DNA of 64,000 nucleotides, taken from an uncultured virus (IMG/VR IMGVR_UViG_3300020050_007563) (Duplodnaviria > Heunggongvirae > Uroviricota > Caudoviricetes). Position 1 is the stretch's first letter; every line of letters begins with the position of its first letter. Positions 1-17,988 of this stretch are shown here, one piece after another. The position numbers and the translations under genes are program-made. The notes beneath the pieces were generated by a model. That model made no database searches, was not told the DNA's origin, and saw nothing but the letters and a program-made list of their open reading frames with translations. Location: IMG/VR virus record IMGVR_UViG_3300020050_007563. The stretch is one strand, 5' to 3'.

Positions 1-8
1 AAAACACC

Positions 9-254
9 ATGAAGAACGCTCGCATCTCCAATACGCTCAACGGCGTCATCAACTCCCTCTGTGCCTCGGGGTATCTGACCGAGGACCAAGCCTCCGAGAT
101 CCGCAAACGACTGGCGCTCCCTTGGGCGCGTCCTGCCATGTGGAATGCCCTGGTGGCCCATGTTGGACTCGAAGAAACCCGCATGTCCCGCTATCGGTTC
201 GTCATCCCAGCAGATCGCCTCCGGTCGGACTTCGCCAGCACCCTCCTGGATTAG
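9..254 (+). CDS. hypothetical protein
   Basis: ATG after an A/C-rich leader; 81-aa ORF collinear with the early module. Confidence 0.6.
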   Translation: MKNARISNTLNGVINSLCASGYLTEDQASEIRKRLALPWARPAMWNALVAHVGLEETRMSRYRFVIPADRLRSDFASTLLD

Positions 255-310
255 AATGGGTCTAAATTAGGAGAAATAGTAGGAGGAAGAAGACAAAGGA
301 TTACATTTGC
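251..310 (+). promoter_or_regulatory. early promoter module copy 1 (palindrome + purine box + -7 box)
   Basis: TTAGAATGGGTCTAAAT 251-267, ATAGTAGGAGGAAGAAGA 276-293, TACATTTGC 302-310; the same module recurs at 3829 and 9086. Confidence 0.8.
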
Positions 311-408
311 TTCGCAGCCTAGCATCGAGCAGCTATGATCCGCCGAACGATGGAGGCAGGCCGGAAGCAACACCGAGGTTTATCCGACGCACTTCATCGA
401 TGTCACCC

Positions 409-700
409 CACCCACCACTAAGAGCTAGAGCAATGGCAAACATGATCACACTAGATCCGGGAATGACTGTACTATACAAGCGCGGCTGGGAGATTGACGG
501 CAATGTCGAGTGGGTTCCATGCAGTGTCGAGCGAGTGACCAGCACAATGGCCATCGTCGGTGGTCATAGGTTCCGCCGCACAGTGGTTATCGATCAGACC
601 GGATACGGACACCTGAGCCTCGTAAAGCCAAGGATGTGGGGTCCAGTGTACCGCATCCACGCTCCTGAACTTGCACCCACCACAAAGAGCTAGAGCAATG
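409..700 (+). repeat. 27-bp direct repeats at gene junctions
   Basis: CACCCACCAC(T/A)AAGAGCTAGAGCAATG at 409-435 and 674-700 (26/27 identical), each ending in a start codon; partial third copy at 854-868. Confidence 0.85.
433..693 (+). CDS. hypothetical protein
   Basis: ATG at the end of the first repeat; in frame with ORF 307..693. Confidence 0.6.
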   Translation: MANMITLDPGMTVLYKRGWEIDGNVEWVPCSVERVTSTMAIVGGHRFRRTVVIDQTGYGHLSLVKPRMWGPVYRIHAPELAPTTKS

Positions 701-853
701 AACACGCCAGAACACATCTTTGTTTGGACACTCCGTGACGTGCTTATAGCAATAGCGCTAGGGGTAGTAATACTCTTAATCCTCTACGGCGTCATCGACA
801 ACTGGATCGATAAACGGTTTCGGAAGAAGAAGAAGTACTATCACAAGGATTGA
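698..853 (+). CDS. small membrane protein
   Basis: One hydrophobic segment (VLIAIALGVVILLILYGVI) and a basic tail. Confidence 0.6.
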   Translation: MNTPEHIFVWTLRDVLIAIALGVVILLILYGVIDNWIDKRFRKKKKYYHKD

Positions 854-882
854 CACCCCACCCACCACCAACAACTGATCCA

Positions 883-1317
883 ATGGAAACGAAGACAACA
901 CCTGTTCACCCGCTGCTGGTCGGTACCACTCCGGGCGAATACATCATCGATGGGTCATCCATCTTCGTGCTGAATGAGGACGGCACCAACCGCATATCCG
1001 CACAGGTTCAGCGCGGATGGGAGAACCAATGGAAGGACGGAGGTAGCCGAACTACCAACGAGGAAGTGGAAGCCGTTGCCCGCTTGTTCCGGGCCGCACC
1101 CTCCCTAGCCGCAGAGAACGCCTTACTGGTAGAGCAGAATGCTAGGCTGAGGGAGGCGCTGGATAAAGACGTAGCCCGCTTCGATGGCATCCTTGGTGAC
1201 ATGCCCAGACTGGCAAGGATGACACCTACCGAGCGGATGTCCTACGATGCGAAGATTGCCGCATATCGAAATGAAGCCCGCGAACTCCTCACCTCTCTAA
1301 CCCATGCATCCAAGTGA
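883..1317 (+). CDS. phage hypothetical protein
   Basis: TPGEY...ARLFRAAPSL motif typical of small phage early proteins; coiled-coil C-terminus. Confidence 0.65.
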   Translation: METKTTPVHPLLVGTTPGEYIIDGSSIFVLNEDGTNRISAQVQRGWENQWKDGGSRTTNEEVEAVARLFRAAPSLAAENALLVEQNARLREALDKDVARFDGILGDMPRLARMTPTERMSYDAKIAAYRNEARELLTSLTHASK

Positions 1318-1583
1318 GCACAACATTGATACACTTGATGAAGCTGGCAACTGCGAACGATGTGATGATTCAGTTCCAGCCAACACAGGACAAGACGCGC
1401 GGACACATCCGCATGTGGGATGCCGTGGAGAAAGATCCGGATAAGGTGCACAAGGTCGAACGGTCTTTCGACTATCGCGCCTTCAGCAACCTCGTTGCCG
1501 CAGACGAGATAAGCATGGATCAGATGATCCGCGCACTTCAGAACCTTGTCGAATCATGCAATCGAAAACTGATTGTTCCATGA
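1314..1583 (+). CDS. hypothetical protein
   Basis: Stop/start overlaps with both neighbours. Confidence 0.6.
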   Translation: MSTTLIHLMKLATANDVMIQFQPTQDKTRGHIRMWDAVEKDPDKVHKVERSFDYRAFSNLVAADEISMDQMIRALQNLVESCNRKLIVP

Positions 1584-1771
1584 TCACACCGAAGGACAAG
1601 GCACTGACCCCAGTAGAACAAGCGATCGAGAGGGCGATGGCTCGGATCGGATGCCCTCCGGGTGACAACTCCGATGCGGATCTATACCACGAACTTGCAG
1701 CCGCCCTAGCCTCCCTGAAGTCCATGGAGCCACGCAAGCCTGTAAACGAGGAGTGCGCTACCAAGCCATGA
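1580..1771 (+). CDS. hypothetical protein
   Basis: ATGA coupling with neighbours. Confidence 0.5.
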   Translation: MITPKDKALTPVEQAIERAMARIGCPPGDNSDADLYHELAAALASLKSMEPRKPVNEECATKP

Positions 1772-2001
1772 AGACAGAATCTCCAGCTCCAGCTCCTTTA
1801 GTGAGTGATGAGCAAATGAAGACCTATCGAATTTCGTGTACCCTATCTATCGAGGTCACGGTAGAAGCGGAATCTGAAGAAGCTGCGCTTGGGTGGCGTG
1901 TTACATCGGTAAGCACCAAGGACGACGACAATTTCAAGGCAGGCGTGTGCGACATAGAGATAGGCCGTCTTGATGTCGATGAAATAACCGAAGAAGCATG
2001 A
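1768..2001 (+). CDS. hypothetical protein
   Basis: MKTYRISCTLSIEVTVEAESEEAA is a common small phage protein pattern. Confidence 0.55.
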   Translation: MKTESPAPAPLVSDEQMKTYRISCTLSIEVTVEAESEEAALGWRVTSVSTKDDDNFKAGVCDIEIGRLDVDEITEEA

Positions 2002-2288
2002 AGCACATAAGCGATGCCGAGATAGTGGAATTGCGCAAGTCGCGCACCACGATAAGCATCACGCCAGAGTTCGCTTGGCAGGATGGCGCAATGGACCTAC
2101 GCGACCTTTACGAAGCCCACCTTTCCAAGATGAGAGCCGAGCGGGACGAGTTGGTGGAGAAGGCTAAGGAGGCCGAAGAATATCTGGTCATGGCTTTAGG
2201 GTCGGACGCCTTTGTGCGCACACCGGACCCCATTCAGCGATGGCTCCTGAAAGCCCGCGCCCTCCTCTCCAAGTACAAGACCGAGTGA
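1998..2288 (+). CDS. hypothetical protein
   Basis: ATGA coupling; 96 aa. Confidence 0.6.
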   Translation: MKHISDAEIVELRKSRTTISITPEFAWQDGAMDLRDLYEAHLSKMRAERDELVEKAKEAEEYLVMALGSDAFVRTPDPIQRWLLKARALLSKYKTE

Positions 2289-2297
2289 CTAAATTAG

Positions 2298-2420
2298 CGG
2301 AGGCGTTCTTTGTGATGGTGGGCACACTGTGGCGCGTGGCCCCAAGCCAGCCCGCCGGAAGTCCGCACTTCTTGGGTAGCAGCGGTAAACCGGCCCCACC
2401 AACACAAAGAACAGGCTCCG
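2298..2420 (+). ncRNA. putative structured RNA (long closing stem, multibranch interior) upstream of the HisRS-like gene
   Basis: GTTCTTTGTG-A-TGGTGGG (2305-2322) pairs with CCCACCA-A-CACAAAGAAC (2395-2412); inner stems CCCAAG/CTTGGG and GAAGT/ACTTC. Strand uncertain. Confidence 0.55.
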
Positions 2421-2477
2421 TGATCCGCAGGCCGTCGCAATCGGGCGGCGGCTTGCTCACCTCAAATCAACAGGAAC

Positions 2478-3110
2478 ATGGAATTGCGTATTGAACAACA
2501 GTCAAGGGGCGTTCGGATCATCACAGGACAAGAAGCCTATCGGCGTCGCTTGCATTTGTCTCGGATTGCCGAGGTGGCTCAAGCATATGGCTTCGAGGAG
2601 ATCATTCTTCCAACAATCGAACCGGCATCGCTTTACGTGGACAAGGCAGGTCCGGAAATTCTTGGCCAGATGTACACATTCCCCGACCGAAAGGGCCGCG
2701 AACTATGTCTGCGACCGGAGGGGACAGCAACCGTTCAGGCGGTAGCTCGTGAACACTGGAAAGGACAGGAGAAGCGCGTTTGGTATTTCGAGCGCTGCTA
2801 TCGATATGAGCGACCACAGGCAGGTCGATACCGCGAGTTCTTCCAGTTCGGAGTGGAGTGGCTGAACCCGTGTACCGATGCGCCGCGTGAAGTGCTGATT
2901 GAAATGGCTGGTCATATGCTCAAAGGAACCGATGCCGTGCTTTCCGAAGGCGTCAAGAGGGGCCTGAGCTACTATACCGGCGACGGCTTCGAGTTCGTTT
3001 GTGATAAGCTCGGTGCGCAGAAACAGGTGTGCGGGGGCGGTCCATATAATGGAGGCATTGGGTTCGCAATCGGGTTCGATAGGATGATGCTCGCATTGAA
3101 TGCCAGCTAA
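2478..3110 (+). CDS. minimal histidyl-tRNA synthetase-like protein (class II catalytic core only)
   Basis: Motif 1 region GFEEIILPTIE, LCLRPEGTA, motif 2 YRYERPQAGRYREFFQFGVE, HisA-like RGLSYYTG, motif 3 GFAIGFDR. 210 aa with no anticodon-binding domain. Confidence 0.88.
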   Translation: MELRIEQQSRGVRIITGQEAYRRRLHLSRIAEVAQAYGFEEIILPTIEPASLYVDKAGPEILGQMYTFPDRKGRELCLRPEGTATVQAVAREHWKGQEKRVWYFERCYRYERPQAGRYREFFQFGVEWLNPCTDAPREVLIEMAGHMLKGTDAVLSEGVKRGLSYYTGDGFEFVCDKLGAQKQVCGGGPYNGGIGFAIGFDRMMLALNAS

Positions 3111-3211
3111 CGTAGCATAAACGAAGATCTTCGCATATCGATCACCGATCCTTTCCAAATCAGACCCCGCCTAATGTGAAGCTAACCGCATGCGAAGCGT
3201 AGCCTTTGCAT

Positions 3212-3247
3212 TAAATGACGAAGCCCCGCACTATTGGCCGGGGCTTC
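3212..3247 (-). terminator. intrinsic terminator-like hairpin
   Basis: 9-bp stem GAAGCCCCG/CGGGGCTTC (3220-3247) followed by GTCATTT on the minus strand. Confidence 0.6.
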
Positions 3248-3466
3248 ACCGCTTTCGCGGGCTCGTTGGCCAGCCATTGCACTAAGCCTTTCGGCGACCG
3301 CTTGTAGCGGACCTTTATGCAAGGCAGACCTACGCTCGTTCGGTATGTTCGCGGGGCCCGTGCTGGTCTTTTCACGCTGCCCACCGATCAAGTCGATGGG
3401 TACCTAAGCCAACGGACCCGCTAAGGCCTTTGGCGCGAGGTGCGGCCCACGAACACAAAGAACTGG
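3212..3466 (-). ncRNA. putative ~255-nt stand-alone structured RNA
   Basis: On the minus strand: -7 box TATACTTGC at 3475-3467, closing stem with G-U pairs (3463-3446/3355-3338), two GAAA-tetraloop hairpins and a 3' terminator hairpin; no credible ORF. Confidence 0.7.
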
Positions 3467-3828
3467 GCAAGTATAGCAATCCTCCGCTACCTTCGCACCA
3501 TCCAAAACGGACGAGCTCCGAATCCTAATGACGCGCCGGGCAGCTAACTGTTCGGCGTTGTCATTTCAACGGATCAGGTTCCGAAGACCTTCCGGATTCC
3601 TTCCCGATCCACCCTCATCATATACCGCTGAGTAATCGACAGGGAGGAATGCCCAAGGATCTGCCTGAGTAGGTCAAGTGGTACTTTCTCACGCGCCGCC
3701 CAATGAGCGAACGTGTGCCGCGACCATTTCACCTAACCAGTACCTGAATGTAGGTATAGGTGGCTTTCTCTTCTTTTCTCTCCCGCGTCTCACCCCCCTT
3801 CGTCGGGATCGCCCTGGCCTTCGTGCGC

Positions 3829-3889
3829 TTAGAATGAATCTAAATAAGACCTCGATAGTAGGAAGAGGAAGAAATAATATTACATTTGC
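3829..3889 (+). promoter_or_regulatory. early promoter module copy 2
   Basis: TTAGAATGAATCTAAAT 3829-3845, ATAGTAGGAAGAGGAAGA from 3855, TACATTTGC 3881-3889. Confidence 0.8.
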
Positions 3890-3903
3890 CTCGAACAACA
3901 ACA

Positions 3904-4227
3904 ATGGCCATGTGGAAAGCCGGAATGAAGGTGGTATGCGTGGATGTCTCCTTTCCGACGCCAGTTATAGGCGTGGCGCCTCCATTGGTTAAAGGGAAGA
4001 CGTACACCATTGTTGGGAGCAGAGAGTGTCCACTATGCGCTAAGACGTGTGTGGACGTGGGCATCCCAGGTGGGGGAGGAATCGGAAGATGCCATTGTGG
4101 GCATCGAAGGATGCAGGAGGTGTGGTGGGTTAGTGCGTGGCGCTTCCGCCCCCTCCTCGGCCACGAACAGGAGCAGCTCGACAAGATCGAGGAAGAGGCT
4201 ATGTCTGAAGAACTCCTGTCTGCATGA
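3904..4227 (+). CDS. hypothetical Cys-containing protein
   Basis: GMKVVCVD...LVKGKTYTI...RFRPL phage pattern with CxxC/CxC; directly after the promoter. Confidence 0.65.
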   Translation: MAMWKAGMKVVCVDVSFPTPVIGVAPPLVKGKTYTIVGSRECPLCAKTCVDVGIPGGGGIGRCHCGHRRMQEVWWVSAWRFRPLLGHEQEQLDKIEEEAMSEELLSA

Positions 4228-4475
4228 AACTCACCGTCTCCGAAGGCATCATCATGAGGGGTCAAGAGGCTCTCGGGTATGCTATTGATACGAAGGCGGT
4301 CTGGCGAGAAGCTCTTCGGCGTGTCCGTGGCTTCGTGGACCGCCTGGGGGATCCGGATGTCCCTGATGACATGGGAGAGGCGGTACGGGACTACATGGAG
4401 GGGCTGACAGATGCGGAACTACAAGAGATAGTGGAGGATCACAAGTGGGAGATACTGGATGAGCTAATAGACTGA
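4224..4475 (+). CDS. hypothetical protein
   Basis: ATGA coupling. Confidence 0.6.
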   Translation: MKLTVSEGIIMRGQEALGYAIDTKAVWREALRRVRGFVDRLGDPDVPDDMGEAVRDYMEGLTDAELQEIVEDHKWEILDELID

Positions 4476-4478
4476 GCC

Positions 4479-4688
4479 ATGACCAACGACAAGAAGCTCT
4501 CCCTGCTGCACGCTCAACTCTCAGCAGCCATTGATGCCGGAGATGAGGTCTCCGTCCTCCAGATCAATCGTCAGATAGAAGAAGTGTTTGCTCTGGATAG
4601 AGAGGAAGTAGTAAGGTACATGCTCAGAAATAGAGTGGTTCTTTCTGAGCACCTATTTCAGACGTTGGGACGAGAGGGGGATTCTTGA
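4479..4688 (+). CDS. hypothetical protein
   Basis: Collinear 69-aa ORF. Confidence 0.55.
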   Translation: MTNDKKLSLLHAQLSAAIDAGDEVSVLQINRQIEEVFALDREEVVRYMLRNRVVLSEHLFQTLGREGDS

Positions 4689-4757
4689 CTTTTTGCTATG
4701 AGTCGGGCGCCTCCGTTGCCCTCCTCTGGCCCGCGATGAACTAAAAACCAAAACACC

Positions 4758-5678
4758 ATGAAAACGATAGTCATAAACACTCAGGCAGAGATGGATGCGC
4801 TTCCGCGTTCATTCGACGAACACACAGAGCTGCAAATACGTGGTAAAATCACGGAGGTTCGTCTCGCATATACAAACGCGGTCATAAGCGTCTGCGGCAG
4901 CGCCACCATCCAGTACGTCTACGGCAGCGCCACCATCCAGCGCGTCTGCGGCAGCGCCACCATCCAGTACGTCTGCGGCAATGCCACCATCCAGCGCGTC
5001 TACGGCAGCGCCACCATCCAGCACGTCTACGACAGCGCCACCATCCAGTACGTCTGCGGCAATGCCACCATCCAGCGCGTCTACGGCAGCGCCACCATCC
5101 AGCACGTCTACGCCAGCGCCACCATCCAGTACGTCTACGGCAGCGCCACCATCCAGCACGTCTGCGGCAATGCCACCATCCGAATAGAGTCTGGCACCAT
5201 TGACATAATGCTAGGCGCGGCAGTGGCGTTCGTTCTCGGAAAATGCACCATCAAGTCAAAGTCCAAAACAAACACGATCATCCAGAGGCCGGAGTCTGGT
5301 ACTGTTGATCTATGGATGATGAGCGAGGGTGTCGTTGCCGAACTCGGTTACGTAGTCCTATTCAAGAGGGTGTCGTCACAATATCAGACGCAAGAGAATA
5401 GTCTACGCGAAACAACGTGGACGCCCGGCACCACCCTTGAACACAGCTCATGGGATCCTCACAAAGAGGAGTGCGGAGCCGGAAAGTATCACGCCTGCTC
5501 GCTGCCTGTGTTCTGTGATGAGTTCCGGAGCACTTATGGGGACAAGTATGTGGCGATCAGGGTCAAAACGTCCGACATGCACGCATGGAAGGACCCGGCT
5601 TACCCGCATAAGATCGCCTTCAGAAAAGGGACTGTAATGTACGAGTGTGACCTCTCCGGAAAAGAGATCAAGCCATGA
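4758..5678 (+). CDS. tandem-repeat (beta-solenoid-like) phage protein with conserved C-terminal domain
   Basis: 11 x 9-aa repeats [YRHS]V[YC][GDA][SN]ATIQ; C-terminal VLFKRV...ECGAGKYHAC domain. Confidence 0.85.
   Translation: MKTIVINTQAEMDALPRSFDEHTELQIRGKITEVRLAYTNAVISVCGSATIQYVYGSATIQRVCGSATIQYVCGNATIQRVYGSATIQHVYDSATIQYVCGNATIQRVYGSATIQHVYASATIQYVYGSATIQHVCGNATIRIESGTIDIMLGAAVAFVLGKCTIKSKSKTNTIIQRPESGTVDLWMMSEGVVAELGYVVLFKRVSSQYQTQENSLRETTWTPGTTLEHSSWDPHKEECGAGKYHACSLPVFCDEFRSTYGDKYVAIRVKTSDMHAWKDPAYPHKIAFRKGTVMYECDLSGKEIKP
4887..5183 (+). repeat. 11 x 27-bp coding tandem repeat
   Basis: Unit NNC-GTC-TRC-GNC-ARY-GCC-ACC-ATC-CAG; 297 bp; includes a duplicated 81-bp higher-order block. 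Confidence 0.95.
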
Positions 5679-6082
5679 ACAAGCGCATCACTCCAAGCAA
5701 CATCACAAGCCTATCTCCCAACGAAGTGTTCGTATTCGGATCGAATACTCGCGGGGTCCATGGGGCTGGCGCGGCTCGGACTGCTCTCCAGTGGGGAGCC
5801 CGGTACGGCGATGGTCATGGATTACAGGGACAGACCTATGCCTTGGCTACGGTCAGAGTTCCTGGAGAGAAGCTGCCGATATTGAGCCTTCGGCGCAACA
5901 TCAACGACTTCATCGCATTCGCCTCTCTAAATCCAGGTCGCACGTTCCTCGTCACAGAGGTTGGCTGCGGGCTGGCTGGGTTCAGCGTAGAGGAGGTGGC
6001 TCCTTTGTTCGCGGATGCTGTCAGCATTCCCAATATCAATCTACCGGCCAGCTTCTGGGACATCCTAACCGAACAACCATGA
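5675..6082 (+). CDS. macro-domain-like phage protein (A1S_2505-like family)
   Basis: EVFVFGSNTRGVHGAGAA...GLQGQTYAL...FLVTEVGCGLAG signature. Confidence 0.8.
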   Translation: MNKRITPSNITSLSPNEVFVFGSNTRGVHGAGAARTALQWGARYGDGHGLQGQTYALATVRVPGEKLPILSLRRNINDFIAFASLNPGRTFLVTEVGCGLAGFSVEEVAPLFADAVSIPNINLPASFWDILTEQP

Positions 6083-6360
6083 TCCAGCAACTCGATGATC
6101 TCATCCCTCGACTGAAGGAGCTACCCTGCACGGGTGTGTTGACCCCGGACTTCTTGAAGGGCCTTTCGCCCCAGCAGTTCAAGGAGATACGAGAGCACTA
6201 CAATGTTCCCCATCTGCACAAGTTGTGGAATGGGAACGGAGTGTACTTCATGATCCCTGTGAACGATGGGCTGTTCATCTCCGTGGACCTGAAGGATGAA
6301 GTAGGGGTCCCTCCTCCTGAGTCGGCAGAAGACATCCTGAAGAGGGTGGCGGGGGAGTGA
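6079..6360 (+). CDS. hypothetical protein
   Basis: ATGA-coupled internal start of ORF 5647..6360. Confidence 0.6.
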   Translation: MIQQLDDLIPRLKELPCTGVLTPDFLKGLSPQQFKEIREHYNVPHLHKLWNGNGVYFMIPVNDGLFISVDLKDEVGVPPPESAEDILKRVAGE

Positions 6361-6496
6361 TCTTTTCTTTCTGACGCTGGCGTCAGAGCTTTAGGTATCG
6401 CAGTTCGCCGAGCCGACCGATTGGTTCTTTGGTAAGAAGATCCTCAACATAGGGGAATCTCGGTGACCATTCCTTTGCACGATAAACAACACGCAC

Positions 6497-7099
6497 ATGA
6501 AGATTCTTGTTGCCTGCGAACACTCTGGTTCCGTCCGGGATGAACTACTGGCTCTCGGCCACGATGCCATCTCGTGCGACATACTACCAACTAATACGCC
6601 GGGCCCGCACTACCAGGGTGACGTGCGGGACATCTTGGATCAGTCGTGGGATATGGTAATCGCGTTCCCGCCCTGTACACACCTTGCCGTCAGCGGAGCC
6701 AAGCACTTCGCTCAGAAGCGAGCCGATGGCAGGCAGCAGGAAGGCATCGACTTCTTTCTGCTGTTCACTCGGTTGGACTGCCCACGGGTGGTGATCGAGA
6801 ATCCCGTCGGGATCATGTCTACCGTATATCGGAAGCCGGATCAGATCATCCAGCCGTATCAACACGGAGACCCTTTCACGAAAACAACTTGCCTTTGGTT
6901 GAAGGGGCTTCCATTGCTGACCCCGACGAGCGTGGTTGATAAGGGTGAGCGCCATGTCACGAAAAGCGGCAAAAGCCTCCCGAAGTGGTATAATGATGCC
7001 CTGGGTCTGCCGCCAGCGCAGCGCGCTATCGTGCGCAATAAAACCTTCCCTGGGATCGCGCGCGCCATGGCTACTCAGTGGGCTGGCGCAGCACTCTAA
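6497..7099 (+). CDS. DNA cytosine methyltransferase-like protein
   Basis: ILVACEHSG, catalytic FPPC, IENP and KTFPGIARAMA motifs. Confidence 0.85.
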   Translation: MKILVACEHSGSVRDELLALGHDAISCDILPTNTPGPHYQGDVRDILDQSWDMVIAFPPCTHLAVSGAKHFAQKRADGRQQEGIDFFLLFTRLDCPRVVIENPVGIMSTVYRKPDQIIQPYQHGDPFTKTTCLWLKGLPLLTPTSVVDKGERHVTKSGKSLPKWYNDALGLPPAQRAIVRNKTFPGIARAMATQWAGAAL

Positions 7100-7295
7100 A
7101 CACAACAACACATGAAACGTTCGCCTTTGTTCATCCGCATTGCGATGCACTACTGGTATTCTCCTTATCCGTGGCCGGATGATGAGATGCATGACGCCCA
7201 TCGCATGGTATATCGAGAGCTTGCTGCGGCGGGGCTTATCTGAGAAAAAGTGAGGCACCCCTTGCTCGTGTCAATCGTGGAAGTAAATTTGTGGC

Positions 7296-7418
7296 ATGCG
7301 TCCCACTACCGCATCCCCAAGAAGTACCCAGCGCCCACAAGCGCATCAACAGCAACGACCGGCAGGAGTAGTGGCCTGCTGGCGTTGCGCTGTTGTGGGT
7401 TGCTATGGGAAGAACTAG
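7296..7418 (+). CDS. putative leaderless 40-aa leader ORF overlapping the next start
   Basis: TAAATTTG -7 box (7284-7291), 4 nt, then ATG; overlaps ATG 7405 and spans a long hairpin. Confidence 0.4.
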   Translation: MRPTTASPRSTQRPQAHQQQRPAGVVACWRCAVVGCYGKN

Positions 7419-8223
7419 GTTTCCTTCCCTCAGCCTCACAGAGGCCGCTATCTACCAGTATGGCGAGGTGGCGCTTGCTCAATGGGTGTTGCTCAAGCAC
7501 AGGACGCGTTCCAGTGGAGGGGCCGTGTACCGATCCTTCACCGATCAGCGCCAAGGCAAGTTCGGCTGGGGGCGCTCCAAGTTCTTTGGAGTGATGAGTG
7601 GTCTTGTGGAAAAGGGGTTGGCGACACGCTACCCATGGGGGTGGGCGCTGGCGACGACATCCAAGGTGATCGGCACCCACAAGGGTAAGGAGGTCCGCCA
7701 CAAGTGTACCCTGTTGCTGCCCAAGCGTTGCGACGAACGATACATCCGGGACCTGCTCCGTCTGAAGCTCATGGAGATGGGGCACCGGCAGAATGAACGA
7801 TATGGAACCAAACTACACCCCGAGCAATTACTCGCCCTAGGCAGGATCAACGCCAAGACATGCGGTAAACTCATCCGACAACTACCCCACAAGACAGCGC
7901 AGAGCCCGAACACGGCCCTATTGGGATCCACTCCCGACCAACTGTTGAAATGCGCTCAGAGGGGTTATGTCGCCATGAATACCCGTAGGCTCATGAAGAC
8001 CACTGGACTCGGCAGAACAGCCTTGTTCAGTTGGAAGAAGAGAGCCAGAAGGCGTAAGTGGTTTTATCAGGAGAACCGGAGCTTTGAGGTGCCAGTGGGG
8101 CTGGAGCCAGGGTTGCCAGTGATGCACGAACACTGGCAGGCTACCTGTGGGGGAAAGTTCTCATGGGGAAGTCGCCCCAAATTCCACCAAGCCTCCATGT
8201 ATAAGATGAACCTTGACTACTGA
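7405..8223 (+). CDS. basic winged-HTH DNA-binding protein, possible replication initiator
   Basis: Two HTH-like segments (FGWGRSKFFGVMSGLVEKGLA; TRRLMKTTGLGRTALFSWKK); very basic. Confidence 0.55.
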   Translation: MGRTRFPSLSLTEAAIYQYGEVALAQWVLLKHRTRSSGGAVYRSFTDQRQGKFGWGRSKFFGVMSGLVEKGLATRYPWGWALATTSKVIGTHKGKEVRHKCTLLLPKRCDERYIRDLLRLKLMEMGHRQNERYGTKLHPEQLLALGRINAKTCGKLIRQLPHKTAQSPNTALLGSTPDQLLKCAQRGYVAMNTRRLMKTTGLGRTALFSWKKRARRRKWFYQENRSFEVPVGLEPGLPVMHEHWQATCGGKFSWGSRPKFHQASMYKMNLDY

Positions 8224-8227
8224 GTCC

Positions 8228-9091
8228 ATGAAAGCGAACTTGTATTTGGGCCCCTCAGGGGCACGGGGCGTTGGGCAGCCGAAGGGCAAGCAGAAGCCTG
8301 TGGCGTGGGTTTGTTTCGTGGGGCGCATCGTCGGTATCCATGAGTCATGGGAAGAGTGTGATCGAAGTGTCCATGGGTATCCGGGGGCACGTCACAAGTC
8401 CTACTTGGTGTATGAGGATGCAGTCGTGGCGTGGGAACGCTTCGAGGAAACCGGAGAGATGGATGTGAGGTCTATGAAACAAAGAACGACTCAAGAGCAG
8501 CACGATTTCTGCAACGACATCCCTAGTCCCTCGGAGCTTCAGCTCCTGGTACTCACGGGCAAGCGATGCCCATACTGTGCCGCGCCTACTGTTCTGGTGG
8601 ACTCCTCGGAGGTCTACAATGGGCGTTCTTACGGCCCTATTTGGATTTGTCGGCCCTGTCGTGCGTGGGTAAGTTGTCATAAAGGAACACACAGGGCTCT
8701 CGGTCGTCTCGCAAACGAGGAACTCCGCAGGCTTAAGATCGCCTTCCACAACAAGTTCGATCCCATCTGGAGGAGCGGGAGATCCGGCAGGAATGAACTC
8801 TATTTGTGGCTCGCCAAGCGGATGGGTATCGACAAGGAGGTCTGCCACGGAGGTATGTTCACTCCAGCGCAGTGTCACGAAGCGATCGACGCACTTAATG
8901 AATGGACTGAGGTGAGCGCAAGAACGAACGGATCACATCAAGCAGTGAGTGTGAGGAAAAAGAAAGAAGACCCCCTGCTCGCCCGCGCCAGAACCCTGAT
9001 GTCCCGCTCTGGCAACGGAACGGGAACCCTCTTGACCACCTGTATCACAGCACCCTGCACATTCCCCTTCTGTAAATGTCCTTCTATTTAG
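8228..9091 (+). CDS. RNase H1 N-terminal (viroplasmin-like) domain fused to DUF3268-like zinc finger
   Basis: GRIVGIHESWEECDRSVHGYPGARHKSY; CPYCAAP...WICRPCRAWVSCH...LGRLAN...FDPIW...YLWLA. Confidence 0.8.
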   Translation: MKANLYLGPSGARGVGQPKGKQKPVAWVCFVGRIVGIHESWEECDRSVHGYPGARHKSYLVYEDAVVAWERFEETGEMDVRSMKQRTTQEQHDFCNDIPSPSELQLLVLTGKRCPYCAAPTVLVDSSEVYNGRSYGPIWICRPCRAWVSCHKGTHRALGRLANEELRRLKIAFHNKFDPIWRSGRSGRNELYLWLAKRMGIDKEVCHGGMFTPAQCHEAIDALNEWTEVSARTNGSHQAVSVRKKKEDPLLARARTLMSRSGNGTGTLLTTCITAPCTFPFCKCPSI

Positions 9092-9147
9092 AATGAGTCT
9101 AAATCACTCCGAATAGTAGGAGGAAGAAGAAAACACCATATACTTGC
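9086..9147 (+). promoter_or_regulatory. early promoter module copy 3
   Basis: Perfect 7-5-7 palindrome ATTTAGA-ATGAG-TCTAAAT 9086-9104, purine box from 9113, TATACTTGC 9139-9147. Confidence 0.8.
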
Positions 9148-9242
9148 ACCGACCAAGCAGCGGATCGAGTAAGCGATGAGCCGAAGGCGACAAAAAAAGA
9201 AAAGACATTCTTCCTCCTACAATTCCTCTTACATTAGCACCC

Positions 9243-9449
9243 ATGAAGAAGAAGAATAAAAAAGAGGGCTCCGTGGAGTACCTATCGGCGGAGCAGATCC
9301 GCAAGTACGAAGGCGTCAACCGACACGACATCGCCCGCAGCCTCGGGTGCTCCTACAAGACCGTACTGGACACCCTGGCTGGGAGGTCCGGGATAGGGGG
9401 TCCGATGGCGAGCAGGGTCATCAAAGAAGCAGATCGTCTCACTAAATAA
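9243..9449 (+). CDS. small HTH regulator (Cro-like)
   Basis: NRHDIARSLGCSYKTVLDTLAGR HTH; own -7 box TACATTAGC at 9230. Confidence 0.7.
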   Translation: MKKKNKKEGSVEYLSAEQIRKYEGVNRHDIARSLGCSYKTVLDTLAGRSGIGGPMASRVIKEADRLTK

Positions 9450-9458
9450 CCATCAACG

Positions 9459-10250
9459 ATGAACGCAGAGAAACGTACCATCACGCCATCGGAGGCCAAA
9501 GAACTCCTCAAGGGCAACAATCGCAACCGTCCGATCAAGAAGCACCACGTCAAGCGACTAGCAGAGGATATGTCGGCAGGCAAATGGGCCTTCAACGGTA
9601 TCCCTATCGTCTTCAATGGCAGGCTCCTGATCGACGGCCAGCATCGCCTCATGGCGTGCGTGGCTTCCGGGAGGCCCTTCGACACCCTCGTAGTAAACGG
9701 AGTGGACGCGGACGCCTTCGTCACCATCGACACGGGGGTTAAGCGCAGCGGAGCTGACACGCTCGCCACGAAGGGGGAGAAGAACGCCACCATCCTATCG
9801 GCGGCATTGGTCCTCGTGGACCTCTACTACTCCAGCGAGATCGGCATCCGCATGACCACCCAGAAGGGGACCAATCGCACCGTGGCGGAGGCTCTCAAGA
9901 AGTACGTAGCCATCCGACCATGTGTGGATCACTGCGTCTCGATGTCCACCAAGATCCTCCCGGTGAGCATCATGAGTGCCTGCCACTACATCTTCAGTCG
10001 CATAGACTCCGTGAAGGCCGACGACTTCATCGACCGCCTCGCAACCGGCAACAACGTCAAGGCCGACAGCGCCATGAGCAGCCTTCGGGATCGGCTCATC
10101 GACAATTACACGAGCGTGCGCAAGCACAGCCGTGGATACATCATGAGCCTCGTCATCCAAGCATGGAACTACGAGCGTAGCGGTCGCAAGGTCACACGCC
10201 TACGCGGCTTCACCGGGGAGTCCAACGAGAAATTCCCAACCGCTATCTGA
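9459..10250 (+). CDS. ParB-like / DGQHR-domain protein
   Basis: NRNRPI...LAEDMSAGKW...LIDGQHRL. Confidence 0.75.
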   Translation: MNAEKRTITPSEAKELLKGNNRNRPIKKHHVKRLAEDMSAGKWAFNGIPIVFNGRLLIDGQHRLMACVASGRPFDTLVVNGVDADAFVTIDTGVKRSGADTLATKGEKNATILSAALVLVDLYYSSEIGIRMTTQKGTNRTVAEALKKYVAIRPCVDHCVSMSTKILPVSIMSACHYIFSRIDSVKADDFIDRLATGNNVKADSAMSSLRDRLIDNYTSVRKHSRGYIMSLVIQAWNYERSGRKVTRLRGFTGESNEKFPTAI

Positions 10251-10251
10251 C

Positions 10252-10476
10252 ATGATCACCAAGAAGACATGGAAGAACCTGATGCCACTGATGTCGTCGG
10301 TTCTTGACAGGCTACAAGGGGAGTACGGCCAGGACGACGACATGGTGACGGAGGTGAGGGAGATGTACGAGCACCTTCAGGCTGGCCCATCCAGTAACAA
10401 GAAAAAGAGCGCCATCTCAAAGGCTCTTGTTGCCAAGCGTTCCCGCGACAAAAACGGACACTTCGTAAAAACATGA
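10252..10476 (+). CDS. hypothetical protein
   Basis: Collinear; ends with an RDKNGHFVK motif. Confidence 0.55.
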   Translation: MITKKTWKNLMPLMSSVLDRLQGEYGQDDDMVTEVREMYEHLQAGPSSNKKKSAISKALVAKRSRDKNGHFVKT

Positions 10477-10758
10477 AACACATCAAGGACTTCCTCGACG
10501 GCTCTTGTGATGAGCGCCTATGGGCGGCTCTGGCGGCGCCTGCGGTGGTGGCCTTGATCATACTCCTGATACTCAAATGAGCAAGATGAAAGAACTCTAC
10601 ATCTCCCTCTGTAACGGAGATGTCCTAACGGATGTGGAGCGCGACTACCTCAGTACCCTCTCTCCGCAGGAGTACGCCGAGGCCGTGGGTCGTGACGTGA
10701 CCCATGAGGAGTATCTGGAGGAACTCTACCTGAAGAACAAACCAACAACCCAAGAAAA

Positions 10759-11502
10759 ATGTCAGGACTAGGATCATTCAACACAGGAGGAAACTCGACC
10801 TATCTGCGCATCGGGATGGGCCTCGATGAGAAGGAGCGTCCTCGCGCGATCATCGCCAAGCGGGCCAAGCAAGGAGACCCTGGGGCGGTCGCCGTCACCA
10901 AGAAGGGCGGAGAGCCAGCGCTGGACAAGGAACAGAATCAGGTCTACCGCACCGAACACGCCTTTGTGGAAGGAATGGTGATCCGCATGAAACGAGAGCA
11001 GCCGGAGTACAATGGGAAGAAGATGGATGTGCTGAACATCACTTTCGATGCCGGACACGGACAGCTCTTCACACTCCAGCTCGACAAGGGCGATGCCTAC
11101 TGGGGGGACTTCGCATTACGCCTACCGAGCATCGACTTCACCAAGCCCCTGAAACTCCAACCCTTCAGCATCCCGCGCGAGGACAACCCCGACAAGCGTA
11201 ACCGCTACCTCGTAGCCTACCAAGGAGGCTCCAAGGTCGAGAAGTTCTGGAACAAGGACAGCGACCCCGAGACAGCCCCTCCGCAGCCCTATCTCGATGA
11301 GGATGAAGGCAAGTGGATGTGGGGGAAGCGCAACAACTGGATCGACCAGAACCCCATCCAGAATGCTATCGACAAGGTGGAGTTTCTCAACAACAAGCCC
11401 TCTGAGTTCACGGCCCTGGACGCCGCAGCAGCTACCGCGCAAGGTCGCGCCTTCGAGGACAATGAGCTACCTCTGGACGAACTGGATGGTCTTCCCTTCT
11501 GA
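10759..11502 (+). CDS. probable single-stranded DNA-binding protein
   Basis: Acidic tail ending ELPLDELDGLPF; located in the replication module. Confidence 0.6.
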   Translation: MSGLGSFNTGGNSTYLRIGMGLDEKERPRAIIAKRAKQGDPGAVAVTKKGGEPALDKEQNQVYRTEHAFVEGMVIRMKREQPEYNGKKMDVLNITFDAGHGQLFTLQLDKGDAYWGDFALRLPSIDFTKPLKLQPFSIPREDNPDKRNRYLVAYQGGSKVEKFWNKDSDPETAPPQPYLDEDEGKWMWGKRNNWIDQNPIQNAIDKVEFLNNKPSEFTALDAAAATAQGRAFEDNELPLDELDGLPF

Positions 11503-11876
11503 TGGAAGCCTTCTACCGCTCCGTCTGCCTGACCGTCGAAGAGCGCGGCGTCGTCCGCCTCTCCGGCGGGAAGGAACTAGCCCACTGGCATGTCCGCTTT
11601 CAGGATGGGAATACCGGGATTGTCTGGGGTCCTGTTGTGGACGATCAGCAACGACCGATGCCGTGTCCGTTCACTGAGGGGAAGCCTGCTTACTACACGA
11701 TGGTTGTCCAGCAGGGGAAGGAGAATAAGATCCGGCCTTTCGATCGGACGGAGTACGACAGGCAGATGCTCATCACAAGGTCGGCTTGCGTGAACTCAGC
11801 AGCAGCCCTTGGGGCGGACCTGGAGAACTGGAAAGACTACGCAGAGAGCATTCTGGCGTGGGTGACGGAGAGGTGA
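11502..11876 (+). CDS. hypothetical protein (OB-fold-like)
   Basis: Coupled to the SSB gene; RQMLITRSACVNSA motif. Confidence 0.6.
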   Translation: MEAFYRSVCLTVEERGVVRLSGGKELAHWHVRFQDGNTGIVWGPVVDDQQRPMPCPFTEGKPAYYTMVVQQGKENKIRPFDRTEYDRQMLITRSACVNSAAALGADLENWKDYAESILAWVTER

Positions 11877-11988
11877 GTTTCTTTTTTCGCAGTCCCGCAT
11901 CACTCGCGTGATGCTCCTTTCGGGCTGGGCGTGCGCTAAGTGTCTACGGGAATCGGAAGAGATCGGAATGGCTTAACACGAGCAACAA

Positions 11989-12288
11989 ATGAAAAAGGCT
12001 CTCAAGTTGGAAGGATATACCGGGGATGTCACGAATCTTCCTTGGGGAAGGTTCCAGATATTCTATCAGTACATGTGTCCAGCTGCAAGTAAGGCGGCTA
12101 CACTAATCACTCACGACGGCCCCCACGAACCCATGTACACCGCATCTGAGGTGAGGGCGATCCTAGATGAACTCCGCGATGCTGCCGGGCACGATGCTAT
12201 TGATAGCGCGATGATAGAGGCGGGCATACCGTCCACGCCCGACGCTGACGTAATGGGCCTAGATGTCCCTAAAGCCGACCACGCATGA
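11989..12288 (+). CDS. hypothetical protein
   Basis: A-rich leader plus ATG. Confidence 0.55.
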   Translation: MKKALKLEGYTGDVTNLPWGRFQIFYQYMCPAASKAATLITHDGPHEPMYTASEVRAILDELRDAAGHDAIDSAMIEAGIPSTPDADVMGLDVPKADHA

Positions 12289-12500
12289 TCAAGGAAGTAA
12301 CCATGTACACGGTCATCTGTGACCGGTGCGGGAAGGATGTCTACTCGGATTGCGACACATTCTCATGCACGGGAAGCGCCAAGGATGCGGTCGATATCGC
12401 CCTTGATGAGTTCGACTGGTATGAGATCAAAGAAGACCACTACTGCCCCGACTGTGTGACTTGGAACGCCGACGCATCCGAACTGATACCGAAGTCATGA
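12285..12500 (+). CDS. small zinc-finger protein
   Basis: CDRC...HYCPDC. Confidence 0.7.
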   Translation: MIKEVTMYTVICDRCGKDVYSDCDTFSCTGSAKDAVDIALDEFDWYEIKEDHYCPDCVTWNADASELIPKS

Positions 12501-12910
12501 ACCTCACAAAGCACCTACAAGAAACCCTGGAGGGGATACGGGAAGGAATGGATGGCTTCTACGCCCCTTCCGACTACCTCCGCCTCCGCCAGATGCAGGA
12601 GGAGATCGAAGAGGCCCTCCTGACCCTCAAGCCCTACGTGATGACCGAAGTGGAGAAGTACGGCAAGAAGGGCTTCCGGAAGGATGGCCTCGTCATCACC
12701 ACCAAAGCAGCAGCCGGAAAGTGGACCTACCCATCGGAGGAGCACGCCAAAGCCAAAGCGGAGGTCTCCCGGATCGAGGAGCGGATGAAGATGTCCTACA
12801 AGGCCCAGCAAGATGGTGGGAACTTGATGGAGTTCGATGGGGTTGTCGTGCAGCCTGCCCAGTACGTCTCCGGAGCCACTACCTTGAACGTCTCAAAAGA
12901 GAAGCCATGA
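12497..12910 (+). CDS. phage hypothetical protein (coiled-coil, recombination module)
   Basis: ATGA coupled; helical. Confidence 0.6.
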   Translation: MNLTKHLQETLEGIREGMDGFYAPSDYLRLRQMQEEIEEALLTLKPYVMTEVEKYGKKGFRKDGLVITTKAAAGKWTYPSEEHAKAKAEVSRIEERMKMSYKAQQDGGNLMEFDGVVVQPAQYVSGATTLNVSKEKP

Positions 12911-16014: not shown

Positions 16015-16016
16015 CC

Positions 16017-16278: not shown

Positions 16279-16304
16279 CCCCCACACCTTGAATCCAAAG
16301 CAGC

Positions 16305-16987: not shown

Positions 16988-17015
16988 GCACACTACCCCG
17001 GTTCTCCCCAAAGCG

Positions 17016-17987: not shown

Positions 17988-17988
17988 C

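What the first reader, a model, noticed from the sequence alone, without database searches (positions are those of the whole stretch)
3212..3475. ~255-nt stand-alone, highly structured RNA gene antisense to the early operon
Seen on the minus strand: a -7 box (TATACTTGC) directly before the 5' end. Domain 1 is closed by GTTC..TGTGTTCGTGGG/CCCGCGAACATA..GAAC, whose mismatches become G-U pairs only on this strand, and contains arms CCGC/GCGG, CCCATCGA/TCGGTGGG and CGTG/CACG. Domain 2 is closed by GCC-TTGCA/TGCAA-T-GGC with CCGC-TACAA-GCGG and GCC-GAAA-GGC hairpins. A CCGC-GAAA-GCGG hairpin and a terminator follow. A junction strand CGTTGGC (3414-3408) is complementary to GCCAACG (3270-3264), and loop AGACC to GGTCT, suggesting pseudoknots. 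I do not recognise the family. Inference: a new phage ncRNA class with tertiary structure.
Basis: partly seen in the sequence, partly recalled or inferred. Interest (0 to 1): 0.8.

Follow-up and report, generated by a model that had tools for sequence, protein, structure and literature searches.

The report
Candidate phage RNA beside mini-HisRS gene
A non-coding, strongly self-pairing stretch of about 250 bases in an uncultured phage probably makes a small structured RNA, but it is one of two related hairpin elements that bracket a shortened histidyl-tRNA synthetase gene, and nothing found here shows what it does.

Summary
On the minus strand the 264 nt fold to -116.9 kcal/mol (z -3.81; 0 of 200 shuffles as good); the plus strand gives z -1.86. 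The stretch carries no convincing ORF. It starts behind a TATACTTGC box that recurs at two other sites in the window, and it ends in a 9-bp G+C hairpin. No Rfam family, tRNA or tmRNA matches.

Three things change the picture.
1. It is not antisense to any gene. It lies in a 463-nt gap between a 210-aa mini-HisRS gene (+) and a 52-aa integrase remnant (-).
2. Domain 1 is not unique. Its 18-nt arm GTTCTTTGTGNTNGTGGG occurs three times in the window (0.05 expected). A second hairpin element (2295-2458, +) lies 20 nt upstream of the mini-HisRS start, so the two elements bracket that gene in inverted orientation.
3. In 8 of 8 other phage loci the mini-HisRS homologue sits among tRNA genes. This window has no tRNA.

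Close relatives seen in public runs diverge exactly at 3478, so the unit is an accessory cassette.

I found no full homologue, so covariation could not be tested, and there is no usable expression evidence. A discrete structured RNA is plausible, at roughly even odds. A new RNA class with tertiary structure is not shown. A DNA-level inverted-repeat cassette end is a serious rival.

The parts
3467..3475 (-). Promoter-like box TATACTTGC (a -7/-10-type element). A transcript would start at about 3462-3464.
   Evidence: Sequence. The same 9-mer occurs at 9139-9147(+) and at 40147-40155(+), the latter 4 nt before the ATG of the 40160 ORF. The simple sigma-70 scan found no -35/-10 pair here.
3338..3463 (-). 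Domain 1, called element A here: a long closing helix (4 bp + 2x2 loop + 12 bp + 2 bp) enclosing three arms.
   Evidence: MFE helices. The 5' arm 3446-3463 carries the repeated 18-mer GTTCTTTGTGTTCGTGGG.
3261..3337 (-). Domain 2: a closing helix with two hairpins (CCGCU-ACA-AGCGG and GCC-GAAA-GGC).
   Evidence: A 256-nt contig of run X4 matches 3238-3351 with 10 differences. The 5 that are listed are compatible with this fold.
3249..3260 (-). CCGC-GAAA-GCGG tetraloop hairpin.
3213..3247 (-). 3' hairpin GAAGCCCCG/CGGGGCUUC followed by the weak U tail GUCAUUUA. It faces the convergent mini-HisRS gene.
   Evidence: It did not pass the terminator consensus scan. Weak Rfam BSnc120 similarity over 3200-3286: 25.7 bits against a gathering score of 114.
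3481..3489 (-). TAGCGGAGG, one of two copies in the window. It lies just outside element A, and relatives share it.
   Evidence: 2 matches against 0.45 expected. The breakpoint with relatives at 3478 lies between this motif and the box.
2295..2458 (+). Element B: TAGCGGAGG, then a long hairpin with the 18-mer in both arms (2305-2322 +, 2395-2412 -) and an unrelated branched interior, then a 12-bp hairpin. It ends 20 nt before the mini-HisRS ATG.
   Evidence: z -4.75 on +, -4.13 on -; z -3.99. Model R1 built from the RNA scores 23.3 bits, E 1.9e-7, on 2304-2458(+). No Rfam hit.
2478..3110 (+). Mini-HisRS: a 210-aa histidyl-tRNA-synthetase-like catalytic core without the insertion and anticodon-binding domains.
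   Evidence: Pfam tRNA-synt_His 1.5e-21. NCBIfam hisS 8e-47, 160 bits, below the cut-off of 287. PDB HisRS chains align in two stretches. On record on 3 contigs, with a variant differing at 5 of 210 residues on a 20.8-kb contig.
3574..3732 (-). A 52-aa C-terminal remnant of a tyrosine integrase, directly upstream of the RNA on the same strand.
   Evidence: Pfam Phage_integrase 1e-7, profile positions 133-166 of 172. PHROG integrase families. No longer frame is open.
3477..3478 (.). Mosaic breakpoint. Contigs of runs X7 and X4 match 3478-3999 with 2 to 7 differences per laid piece and are unlike the window below 3478.
   Evidence: tables 7 and 8.

Best explanation
The segment is most likely a separately transcribed, structured non-coding RNA of about 245 nt (about 3463 to about 3216, minus strand). 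It would be one of two RNA-level hairpin elements belonging to an accessory mini-HisRS cassette.

Element B (2295-2458, +) would be the 5' leader of the mini-HisRS mRNA. It is transcribed convergently and stops at the hairpin shared with the gene's 3' end.

The two elements have in common only the long closing helix (the 18-nt arms) and the TAGCGGAGG motif outside it. I therefore infer that this helix is the functional core: a common site on double-stranded RNA for one protein. That protein could be RNase III-type processing and stabilisation, or the mini-HisRS itself binding in an autoregulatory or titrating way. Domain 2 and the tetraloop hairpins would give the free RNA stability.

Shown here:
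- The stretch is non-coding.
- The fold and its strand bias are real.
- The box and the 3' hairpin are present.
- The paralogy of the arms is real.
- The cassette is accessory.
- The gene sits among tRNA genes elsewhere.

Inferred, not shown:
- That it is transcribed.
- Where the transcript ends lie.
- Any protein partner.
- Any function.
For: Fold and strand bias:
- z -3.81 on the minus strand against -1.86 on the plus strand; 84 pairs, 6 of them G-U.

Non-coding:
- All frames close within 80 aa.
- 0 of 6 frames hit Pfam.
- 0 of 3 candidate ORFs in the stretch are on record, and neither is the 84-aa ORF over element B, while the mini-HisRS and the ORF at 1998-2285 are.
- No protein homologue was found for the 73-aa frame.

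Promoter box:
- TATACTTGC lies 4 nt before the first helix and recurs at 9139 and 40147, the latter 4 nt before an ATG.
- Relative to B, element A carries a 17-nt insert (ATTGCTATACTTGCCCA) between TAGCGGAGG and the arm, and this insert supplies the box.

Paralogy of the arms:
- The 18-mer matches 3 times with 0 mismatches, against 0.05 expected. Allowing 3 mismatches adds none.
- The arms of each element agree with each other at variable position 13 (C/C in A, G/G in B). That gives C-G in one helix and G-C in the other.
- Two further differences are G-C or A-U against G-U.
- The interiors are unrelated. So the helix, not the whole element, is what is kept.

Partial homologue:
- The partial homologue in run X4 shows 5 listed substitutions. 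3 fall at unpaired positions and 2 turn G-C into G-U on the minus strand.

Context:
- Mini-HisRS homologues in 8 of 8 other phage loci have tRNA genes on the same strand within 3 kb.
- 4 of those 8 have tRNA-His upstream, and in one locus it lies 16 nt upstream.
- So the positions beside this gene are normally held by RNA genes.
Against: - No full homologue was found anywhere. There is therefore no covariation test and no evidence that the RNA is conserved.
- The fold energy is not an outlier within this window. Its z is -2.77, and five fixed-grid windows elsewhere in the window do as well or better.
- The 3' hairpin has a weak U tail and failed the terminator scan, and no -35/-10 promoter was called.
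- A and B lie in inverted orientation around a gene, with a shared outer motif. That is also what the ends of a mobile or recombined DNA cassette look like.
- In one 6.3-kb contig of run X4, a 60-nt piece of domain 1 (3398-3457) lies inverted relative to the integrase end. This fits a DNA module that can sit either way round.
- The two read-length contigs of run X1 cover 3260-3560, which runs past the proposed start. That run may be DNA.
- Close relatives lack the segment altogether.
Confidence: 0.4

Rival explanations
1. DNA-level element. The 18-nt arms plus TAGCGGAGG are the terminal and subterminal inverted repeats of a non-autonomous mobile cassette, or of a cassette acquired by recombination (2295-3489), that carries the mini-HisRS gene. 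The RNA-like fold would be a by-product of palindromic ends, and any transcript would be incidental.
For: - The outer copies (2295-2322 + and 3446-3489 -) are inverted and bracket a single cargo gene.
- The arms are conserved while the interiors are unrelated, as in MITE-type families.
- Relatives break at 3478, 15 nt outside the arm.
- A 60-nt piece of domain 1 is found inverted in another contig.
- A tyrosine-recombinase remnant lies next to it.
- The cassette's gene was clearly exchanged between unrelated phages: 51-63% identity to genes of 350-520-kb phages.
Against: - There are only three copies in 64 kb, none elsewhere in the window.
- None was found in 401 Bacteroidota genomes beyond the control level, though the host is unknown.
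- No direct target duplication flanks A, and the 4-nt AGGC on both sides of B is part of its extended palindrome (inspection).
- There is no transposase in the cassette.
- TAGCGGAGG on the right side belongs to the backbone shared with relatives.
- This reading does not explain domain 2, the two GAAA tetraloops, the strand bias of the fold, or the promoter box inserted in A.
Confidence: 0.25
2. This is an autonomous, trans-acting RNA of a new class with tertiary structure (pseudoknots, possibly a ribozyme), unrelated in function to the neighbouring gene.
For: - No Rfam family matches.
- The fold is multi-branched with two GAAA tetraloops.
- The long-range complementarity of 16 in 20 is reached by 1.3% of shuffles.
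- It has its own promoter box and a 3' hairpin.
Against: - No conservation is shown.
- Enforcing the long-range helix in a nested fold costs 11 kcal/mol (-105.9 against -116.9). As a pseudoknot it would have to displace two local hairpins.
- Domain 1's defining helix is shared with a leader-like element in front of the mini-HisRS gene, which ties it to the cassette.
- No ribozyme family matched even at E up to 10.
Confidence: 0.15
3. No function. The gap is debris of a decayed integration module (integrase remnant, former attP region), and its fold reflects G+C richness and a chance or neutral inverted duplication.
For: - The integrase is reduced to 52 aa.
- The region is a mosaic joint that varies between close relatives.
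- Window-wide, several coding stretches fold as well.
- No homologue was found.
Against: - Three exact copies of an 18-mer against 0.05 expected, with paired arms kept in both elements, are not debris.
- z is -3.8 to -4.75 for both elements.
- The promoter box is identical to two others in the window.
- The identical segment is present in an independent run, X1.
Confidence: 0.15

Closest known systems
Small stable RNAs encoded in phage tRNA regions (T4 'species 1 and 2' / RNA C and D). Recalled from the older T4 literature; not found in the papers I searched.
   Same: They are phage-encoded, structured, stable RNAs of 120-140 nt with unknown function that sit in the gene neighbourhood of tRNA genes. 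Here the RNA flanks a gene that lies inside tRNA arrays in 8 of 8 other phage loci.
   Different: There is no tRNA in this window, no sequence or model similarity was tested or shown, and the RNA here has its own promoter box and lies convergent to the gene.
Intercistronic RNase III hairpins of phage early transcripts (T7 R sites, lambda sib). Recalled.
   Same: They have long, nearly perfect helices of about 18-25 bp interrupted by small internal loops, placed between genes. Lambda sib lies downstream of int, as element A lies downstream of the integrase remnant.
   Different: Those sites are simple hairpins read on the mRNA strand. Element A carries a three-arm interior, a second domain and its own promoter box on the opposite strand. 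Cleavage is untested.
Translational operators of aminoacyl-tRNA synthetase genes that mimic the cognate tRNA (E. coli thrS), and T-box leaders. Recalled.
   Same: They are structured leaders directly upstream of a synthetase-type gene, as element B is. The inner helix of B reads GGUGG/CCACC, like the G-1 to G4 acceptor end of the tRNA-His next to the homologue in Sinorhizobium phage Phosso.
   Different: No T-box or other leader family matched at E up to 10. The acceptor-like helix is internal, without a free CCA end. Element A has C-G where G-1:C73 would be, and the tRNA-His genes of two other phages have other acceptor sequences.
Miniature inverted-repeat elements, mobile insertion cassettes and integron attC hairpins. 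Recalled; a MITE/REP review was seen as a search listing and abstract only (PMC3184786).
   Same: They are 100-130-nt imperfect palindromes with conserved arms and variable interiors that flank cargo genes. A tyrosine recombinase fragment lies nearby.
   Different: There are only three arm copies and no target duplication at A. The ends read GTTC...GAAC rather than the attC order RYYYAAC...GTTRRRY (recalled consensus). The integrase is a remnant that faces the wrong way for a classical integron.
Rfam RF02621 BSnc120 (Brucella sRNA 120).
   Same: It is the only Rfam model with E below 1. The alignment covers a small hairpin plus a GAAnCCCCG/CGGGGnUUC hairpin and a CAUUU tail at 3200-3286.
   Different: It scores 25.7 bits against a gathering score of 114. 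It covers only the 3' third, and the similarity is essentially that of a terminator hairpin.

Membership tests
Any Rfam 15 family | Covariance-model score at or above the family's gathering score | tested here: not met
   0 matches in the whole window at gathering scores. At E up to 10, 3 matches in 2900-3800, all far below gathering, and 0 in 2150-2950.
BSnc120 (RF02621) | Score of at least 114 bits over the 88-position model | tested here: not met
   25.7 bits, E 0.002 for the 901-nt search.
tRNA / tmRNA | Cloverleaf with T-loop and anticodon loop, or a tmRNA tag and pseudoknots, as detected by ARAGORN | tested here: not met
   0 genes in 64 kb. No tRNA or tmRNA model at E up to 10.
T-box leader | Match to the T-box model (stem I specifier, T-box sequence, antiterminator) | tested here: not met
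   No hit at E up to 10 over either element.
Structured ncRNA gene (generic) | Compensatory base changes across homologues | not testable with these tools
   No full homologue could be fetched. The only data are 5 substitutions in one partial contig (3 unpaired, 2 G-C to G-U) and one C-G/G-C swap between the two paralogous helices.
Structured ncRNA gene (generic) | A discrete transcript with defined ends | not testable with these tools
   No listed run is on record as RNA, and contigs cannot show ends or strand.
MITE / mobile insertion cassette | Terminal inverted repeats | tested here: met
   18-mer arms plus TAGCGGAGG in inverted orientation at 2295-2322 and 3446-3489.
MITE / mobile insertion cassette | Direct target-site duplication at the ends | tested here: not met
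   By inspection of the flanks: none at A or at the outer ends. AGGC on both sides of B is part of its palindrome.
MITE / mobile insertion cassette | Many copies in the host or in other genomes | tested here: inconclusive
   No further copy in the window within 3 mismatches. In 401 sampled Bacteroidota genomes, 54 had hits with up to 1 mismatch, scattered control (backwards-pattern) hits of the same order (not tallied), and the one genome with two exact hits has them in a repeated, unrelated sequence. The host is unknown.
Integron attC site | R'' RYYYAAC at the 5' end and R' GTTRRRY at the 3' end of a 57-141-nt imperfect palindrome (consensus recalled), next to an IntI-type integrase | tested here: not met
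   The sizes fit (108 and 126 nt), but both elements begin GTTC and end GAAC, which is the opposite order. The integrase is a 52-aa remnant, so the IntI-specific insert cannot be assessed.
RNase III processing site | About two turns of near-continuous double-stranded RNA, and cleavage by RNase III | not testable with these tools
   The helix length fits: 10+7(+6) bp in B and 4+12+2 bp in A. Cleavage needs an assay.

The most novel reading that the evidence does not exclude
The two hairpin RNAs are the RNA partners of the phage mini-HisRS. They would stand in for the tRNA-His that accompanies this gene in other phages. The enzyme lacks an anticodon-binding domain, so it would recognise the acceptor-like GGUGG/CCACC part of the shared helix. 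It would bind its own leader (B) to control its synthesis, and it would bind or even modify the free 245-nt RNA (A). That would make a phage-borne synthetase-like protein with a dedicated non-tRNA RNA.
Probability: 0.08. Interest if true: 0.8.

Novelty: new variant of a known kind. Interest (0 to 1): 0.45.

Why it matters
If the RNA is real, it adds an unclassified structured RNA to the short list known from phages. It also ties that RNA to a recurrent, uncharacterised phage gene: a HisRS catalytic core of about 200 aa that otherwise lives inside tRNA arrays. This gives a concrete pair, protein plus two RNAs sharing one helix, that can be tested at the bench. If it is instead a DNA cassette end, it documents how such a gene moves between unrelated phages. 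Either way the finding is one locus in one uncultured phage lineage, so its present weight is modest.

Tried and rejected
Homologue searches that found nothing useful:
- blastn of the segment against 50,697 phage records and 72,556 plasmids: no match.
- megablast of window 1-20000 against the phage records: no match.
- Exact-pattern scans of IMG/VR with four window stretches: 0 hits each.
- A palindrome pattern scan of IMG/VR: 3 hits, all unrelated A+T-rich or other sequence.
- Two scans of JGI metagenome contigs (0; 10 hits, all chance 19-20-mers).
- nhmmer and blastn against all 112 loci held at that point, 586,932 nt: nothing.
- Model R1 on G001, on 5 whole jumbo-phage records, on 97 loci and on 8 mini-HisRS loci: nothing at E up to 1. 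The one hit was 9 bits, E 0.32, in L029.
- blastn on 5 genomes: nothing.
- The tools say that records very near the window may be left out, so these blanks do not show that the RNA is rare.

Searches through neighbouring genes:
- Mini-HisRS in IMG/VR: 5 loci, no RNA similarity.
- The 113-aa ORF: 1 weak locus.
- The integrase remnant: 15 viral and 80 genome loci, all at 61% identity or less, from many phyla and uninformative about the host.
- The portal protein against cultured phages: no match.

Host:
- The protein-atlas look-up of the IS1-like transposase gave mixed phyla.
- The 18-mer search in 401 Bacteroidota genomes gave scattered single hits, with control hits of the same order.
- The host remains unknown. 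The TAnnTTTG-like boxes hint at Bacteroidota, a motif recalled rather than tested.

Expression:
- No RNA holder is listed among 24 runs.
- The raw-read run X21 laid 0 reads.

Coding:
- Pfam on 6 frames: 0 hits.
- Protein search with the 73-aa frame: no candidate.

Cassette insertion test:
- The 30-nt sequence that replaces the segment in relatives is not elsewhere in the window. So the relatives are not simply 'empty sites'.

Other:
- The nested fold enforcing the long-range helix is 11 kcal/mol worse.
- The interiors and tails of A and B show no significant similarity.
- The own-genome search and earlier findings were not available.
- Literature: four full-text searches and one paper turned up nothing on a phage mini-HisRS with flanking RNAs. 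I saw listings and abstracts, plus passages of PMC2330249. This is not proof that nothing is in print.
Full report
**What is at 3212-3475.** Read on the minus strand, the stretch runs as follows. It begins with TATACTTGC (3475-3467). A long closing helix follows: GUUC/GAAC, then a 2x2 loop, then a 12-bp helix with two G-U pairs, then CC/GG. This helix encloses three arms and makes up domain 1 (3463-3338). Domain 2 (3337-3261) has two hairpins. After it come a CCGC-GAAA-GCGG hairpin (3260-3249) and a 9-bp G+C hairpin (3247-3220) followed by GUCAUUUA.

ViennaRNA gives -116.9 kcal/mol, z -3.81 against 200 dinucleotide shuffles, with none as good. The opposite strand gives -105.6 kcal/mol, z -1.86, with 9 of 200 shuffles as good.

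Against the window's own background the signal is weaker. I regressed MFE on G+C over 1022 windows of 250 nt. The best frame here reaches z -2.77, and five fixed-grid windows elsewhere, all in other parts of the window, reach -2.74 to -3.17. Thermodynamics alone therefore does not single the stretch out.

**It is non-coding and matches nothing known.**
- Every frame is closed within 80 aa.
- Six frame translations hit no Pfam family at E up to 1.
- The 73-aa frame has no relative in the large protein collection.
- In an exact look-up of 8 ORFs of the neighbourhood, only the mini-HisRS and the ORF at 1998-2285 are on record. The three ORFs inside the stretch and the 84-aa ORF over element B are not.
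- Rfam gives 0 matches at gathering scores in the whole window.
- At E up to 10 there is only a weak BSnc120 match over the 3' hairpins, 25.7 bits against a gathering score of 114.
- ARAGORN finds no tRNA or tmRNA in 64 kb.

**Surroundings.** The window is a tailed-phage genome, with portal, tail and endolysin PHROG hits. It has no relative among cultured phages.

The stretch lies in a 463-nt gap. To its left, convergent with it, is a 210-aa ORF (2478-3110, +). This ORF is a histidyl-tRNA synthetase catalytic core without the insertion and anticodon-binding domains:
- Pfam tRNA-synt_His 1.5e-21.
- NCBIfam hisS 160 bits, below the cut-off of 287.
- Two aligned stretches against solved HisRS chains.

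To its right, on the same strand and upstream, is a 52-aa C-terminal remnant of a tyrosine integrase (3574-3732). The next plus-strand operon starts near 3886, behind one of three copies of a conserved promoter-like cassette of about 60 nt (families D4 and D13). So the RNA is opposite in direction to its neighbours but antisense to no gene.

**The promoter box.** TATACTTGC occurs three times in the window. Besides the copy here, one lies inside the third promoter-like cassette (9139), and one lies 4 nt before the ATG of the 40160 ORF. TACATTTGC sits at the same place in the other two cassettes. This makes a start at about 3463 plausible. The loose pattern TANNNTTGC is not enriched, with 12 matches against 13.7 expected. 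The sigma-70 scan called no promoter, and it did not accept the 3' hairpin as a terminator.

**The main new observation: a second, related element.** A self-comparison showed that the 5' arm of domain 1 recurs at 2305-2322(+) and 2395-2412(-). The pattern GTTCTTTGTGNTNGTGGG has three exact matches against 0.05 expected, and allowing 3 mismatches adds none. TAGCGGAGG occurs twice, each time just outside an outer arm, at 2295-2303(+) and 3481-3489(-).

The stretch 2290-2425 folds into a helix of about 25 bp with a branched interior (z -4.75 on +, -4.13 on -). With the 12-bp hairpin that follows it, the fold reaches z -3.99 and ends 20 nt before the mini-HisRS ATG. A covariance model built from the RNA alone (R1) scores 2304-2458(+) at 23.3 bits, E 1.9e-7. 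The alignment covers the closing helix and the 3' hairpins, with domain 2 deleted.

The interiors and tails of the two elements are not similar. Relative to B, element A carries a 17-nt insert between TAGCGGAGG and the arm, and that insert supplies the promoter box. The two arms of each element agree at variable position 13 (C in A, G in B). The helices therefore differ by a C-G/G-C swap. Two further differences are Watson-Crick against G-U.

Thus two inward-facing hairpin elements, sharing only their closing helix and an outer 9-mer, bracket the mini-HisRS gene.

**The cassette is accessory.** Of the 24 runs listed, 20 hold part of 3100-3800, from 12 studies, and none holds half of its words. 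I laid four runs on 2900-4000.
- Contigs of X7 and X4 match 3478-3999 with 2 to 7 differences per laid piece and become unlike the window exactly at 3478.
- The replacing sequence is not elsewhere in the window.
- X1 has two read-length contigs identical to 3260-3560.
- A 256-nt X4 contig matches 3238-3351 with 10 differences and has unlike flanks. The 5 differences that are listed fall at 3 unpaired positions and at 2 G-C pairs that become G-U on the minus strand.
- A 6.3-kb X4 contig carries 3398-3457 inverted relative to a 90%-similar integrase end.
- X21 laid no reads.

The exact mini-HisRS is on 3 contigs, and a variant with 5 of 210 residues changed is on a 20.8-kb contig. I could not fetch their DNA.

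**Context of the gene elsewhere.** Homologues at 43-63% identity occur in 5 IMG/VR contigs (30 to 519 kb in size, three of them 353 to 519 kb), in Sinorhizobium phage Phosso (469 kb), and in two uncultured phages of about 640 kb.
- In 8 of 8 of these loci ARAGORN finds tRNA genes on the same strand within 3 kb.
- In 4 of the 8 a tRNA-His(gtg) lies upstream. In L001 it ends 16 nt before the gene.
- R1 finds nothing in these loci, or in five whole records.

In this window the places that tRNA genes hold elsewhere are taken by the two hairpin elements.

**Interpretation.** The points in favour of a real minus-strand RNA of about 245 nt are these:
- The gap is non-coding.
- The fold is biased to the minus strand.
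- The promoter box was inserted in A relative to B.
- There are two GAAA tetraloops.
- The few observed substitutions are compatible with the fold.
- The pairing is kept in two otherwise unrelated elements.
- The gene has RNA-gene neighbours in other phages.

I put the odds that such an RNA exists at a little over even. I put 0.4 on the fuller reading that A and B are RNA-level parts of the mini-HisRS cassette whose shared helix is a common protein or processing site.

The inverted arrangement, the conserved arms with unrelated interiors, the breakpoint at the arm, the inverted piece in another contig and the adjacent recombinase remnant fit a DNA-level cassette end about as naturally (0.25). 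Enforcing that helix in a nested fold costs 11 kcal/mol. Debris of a decayed integration module (0.15) fits poorly with three exact 18-mers and two folds at z of -4 or better.

**Limits.** All collection scans that could have returned homologues came back empty or with chance hits. The host is unknown. No run on record as RNA held the stretch. Covariation, transcript ends and any protein partner are therefore untested.

The comparisons with T4 stable RNAs, RNase III sites, thrS-type operators, MITEs and attC sites rest on recalled knowledge. My literature searches (listings, abstracts and passages of one paper) found nothing specific to this arrangement.

Noticed in passing
window 2295-2458 (+): Element B is a long hairpin of about 125 nt (z -4.75) plus a 12-bp hairpin, directly upstream of the mini-HisRS start. 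It shares its 18-nt arms and TAGCGGAGG with the RNA. The 84-aa ORF that overlaps it is not on record as a called gene.
   Followed up: yes
window 2478-3110 (+); loci L001-L005, L123-L125: The 210-aa HisRS catalytic core lacks the insertion and anticodon-binding domains. Homologues in 8 of 8 other phage loci lie among tRNA genes, and 4 of the 8 have tRNA-His upstream. Its function is unknown.
   Followed up: partly
window 251-314, 3830-3893, 9088-9151 (+); inverted copy 9208-9237: A repeated cassette of about 60 nt (TAGAATGNGTCTAAAT ... ATAGTAGGAGGAAGAAGA ... TAYAYTTGC) stands in front of plus-strand gene blocks. These are probably phage promoters with a TAnnTTTG-like box.
   Followed up: partly
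window 3762-3826: This 65-nt stretch is the only part of window 1-20000 shared with the nearest held virus record G001 (91% identity). It lies between the integrase remnant and the promoter-like cassette and may be a conserved regulatory element.
   Followed up: no
window 40147-40155 (+): TATACTTGC lies 4 nt before the ATG of the 366-aa ORF at 40160, which suggests a leaderless or nearly leaderless late transcript.
   Followed up: no
window 20757-23113: 28-nt inverted repeats (86% complementary) flank an IS1-family transposase ORF (21925-22941). This looks like an insertion sequence inside the phage genome.
   Followed up: partly
window 4835-5239 (ORF 4758-5678, +): Eleven tandem 27-nt repeats encode a 9-residue repeat (GSATIQxVx), with a weak YdcK beta-solenoid hit.
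   Followed up: no
window 3533-3558 and 3213-3225 / 3554-3566: A hairpin lies just after the integrase remnant's stop. A 13-nt inverted repeat (AAATGACGAAGCC / GGCGTTGTCATTT) links the tails of this hairpin and of the RNA's 3' hairpin.
   Followed up: no
window 401-451, 674-700, 851-901: Three copies of CACCCACCAC-AAGAGCTAGAGCAATG-like sequence lie at the starts of consecutive small plus-strand ORFs.
   Followed up: no
L001 2898-2984: The tRNA-His next to the mini-HisRS homologue in a 519-kb phage is 87 nt long, unusually long for tRNA-His.
   Followed up: no
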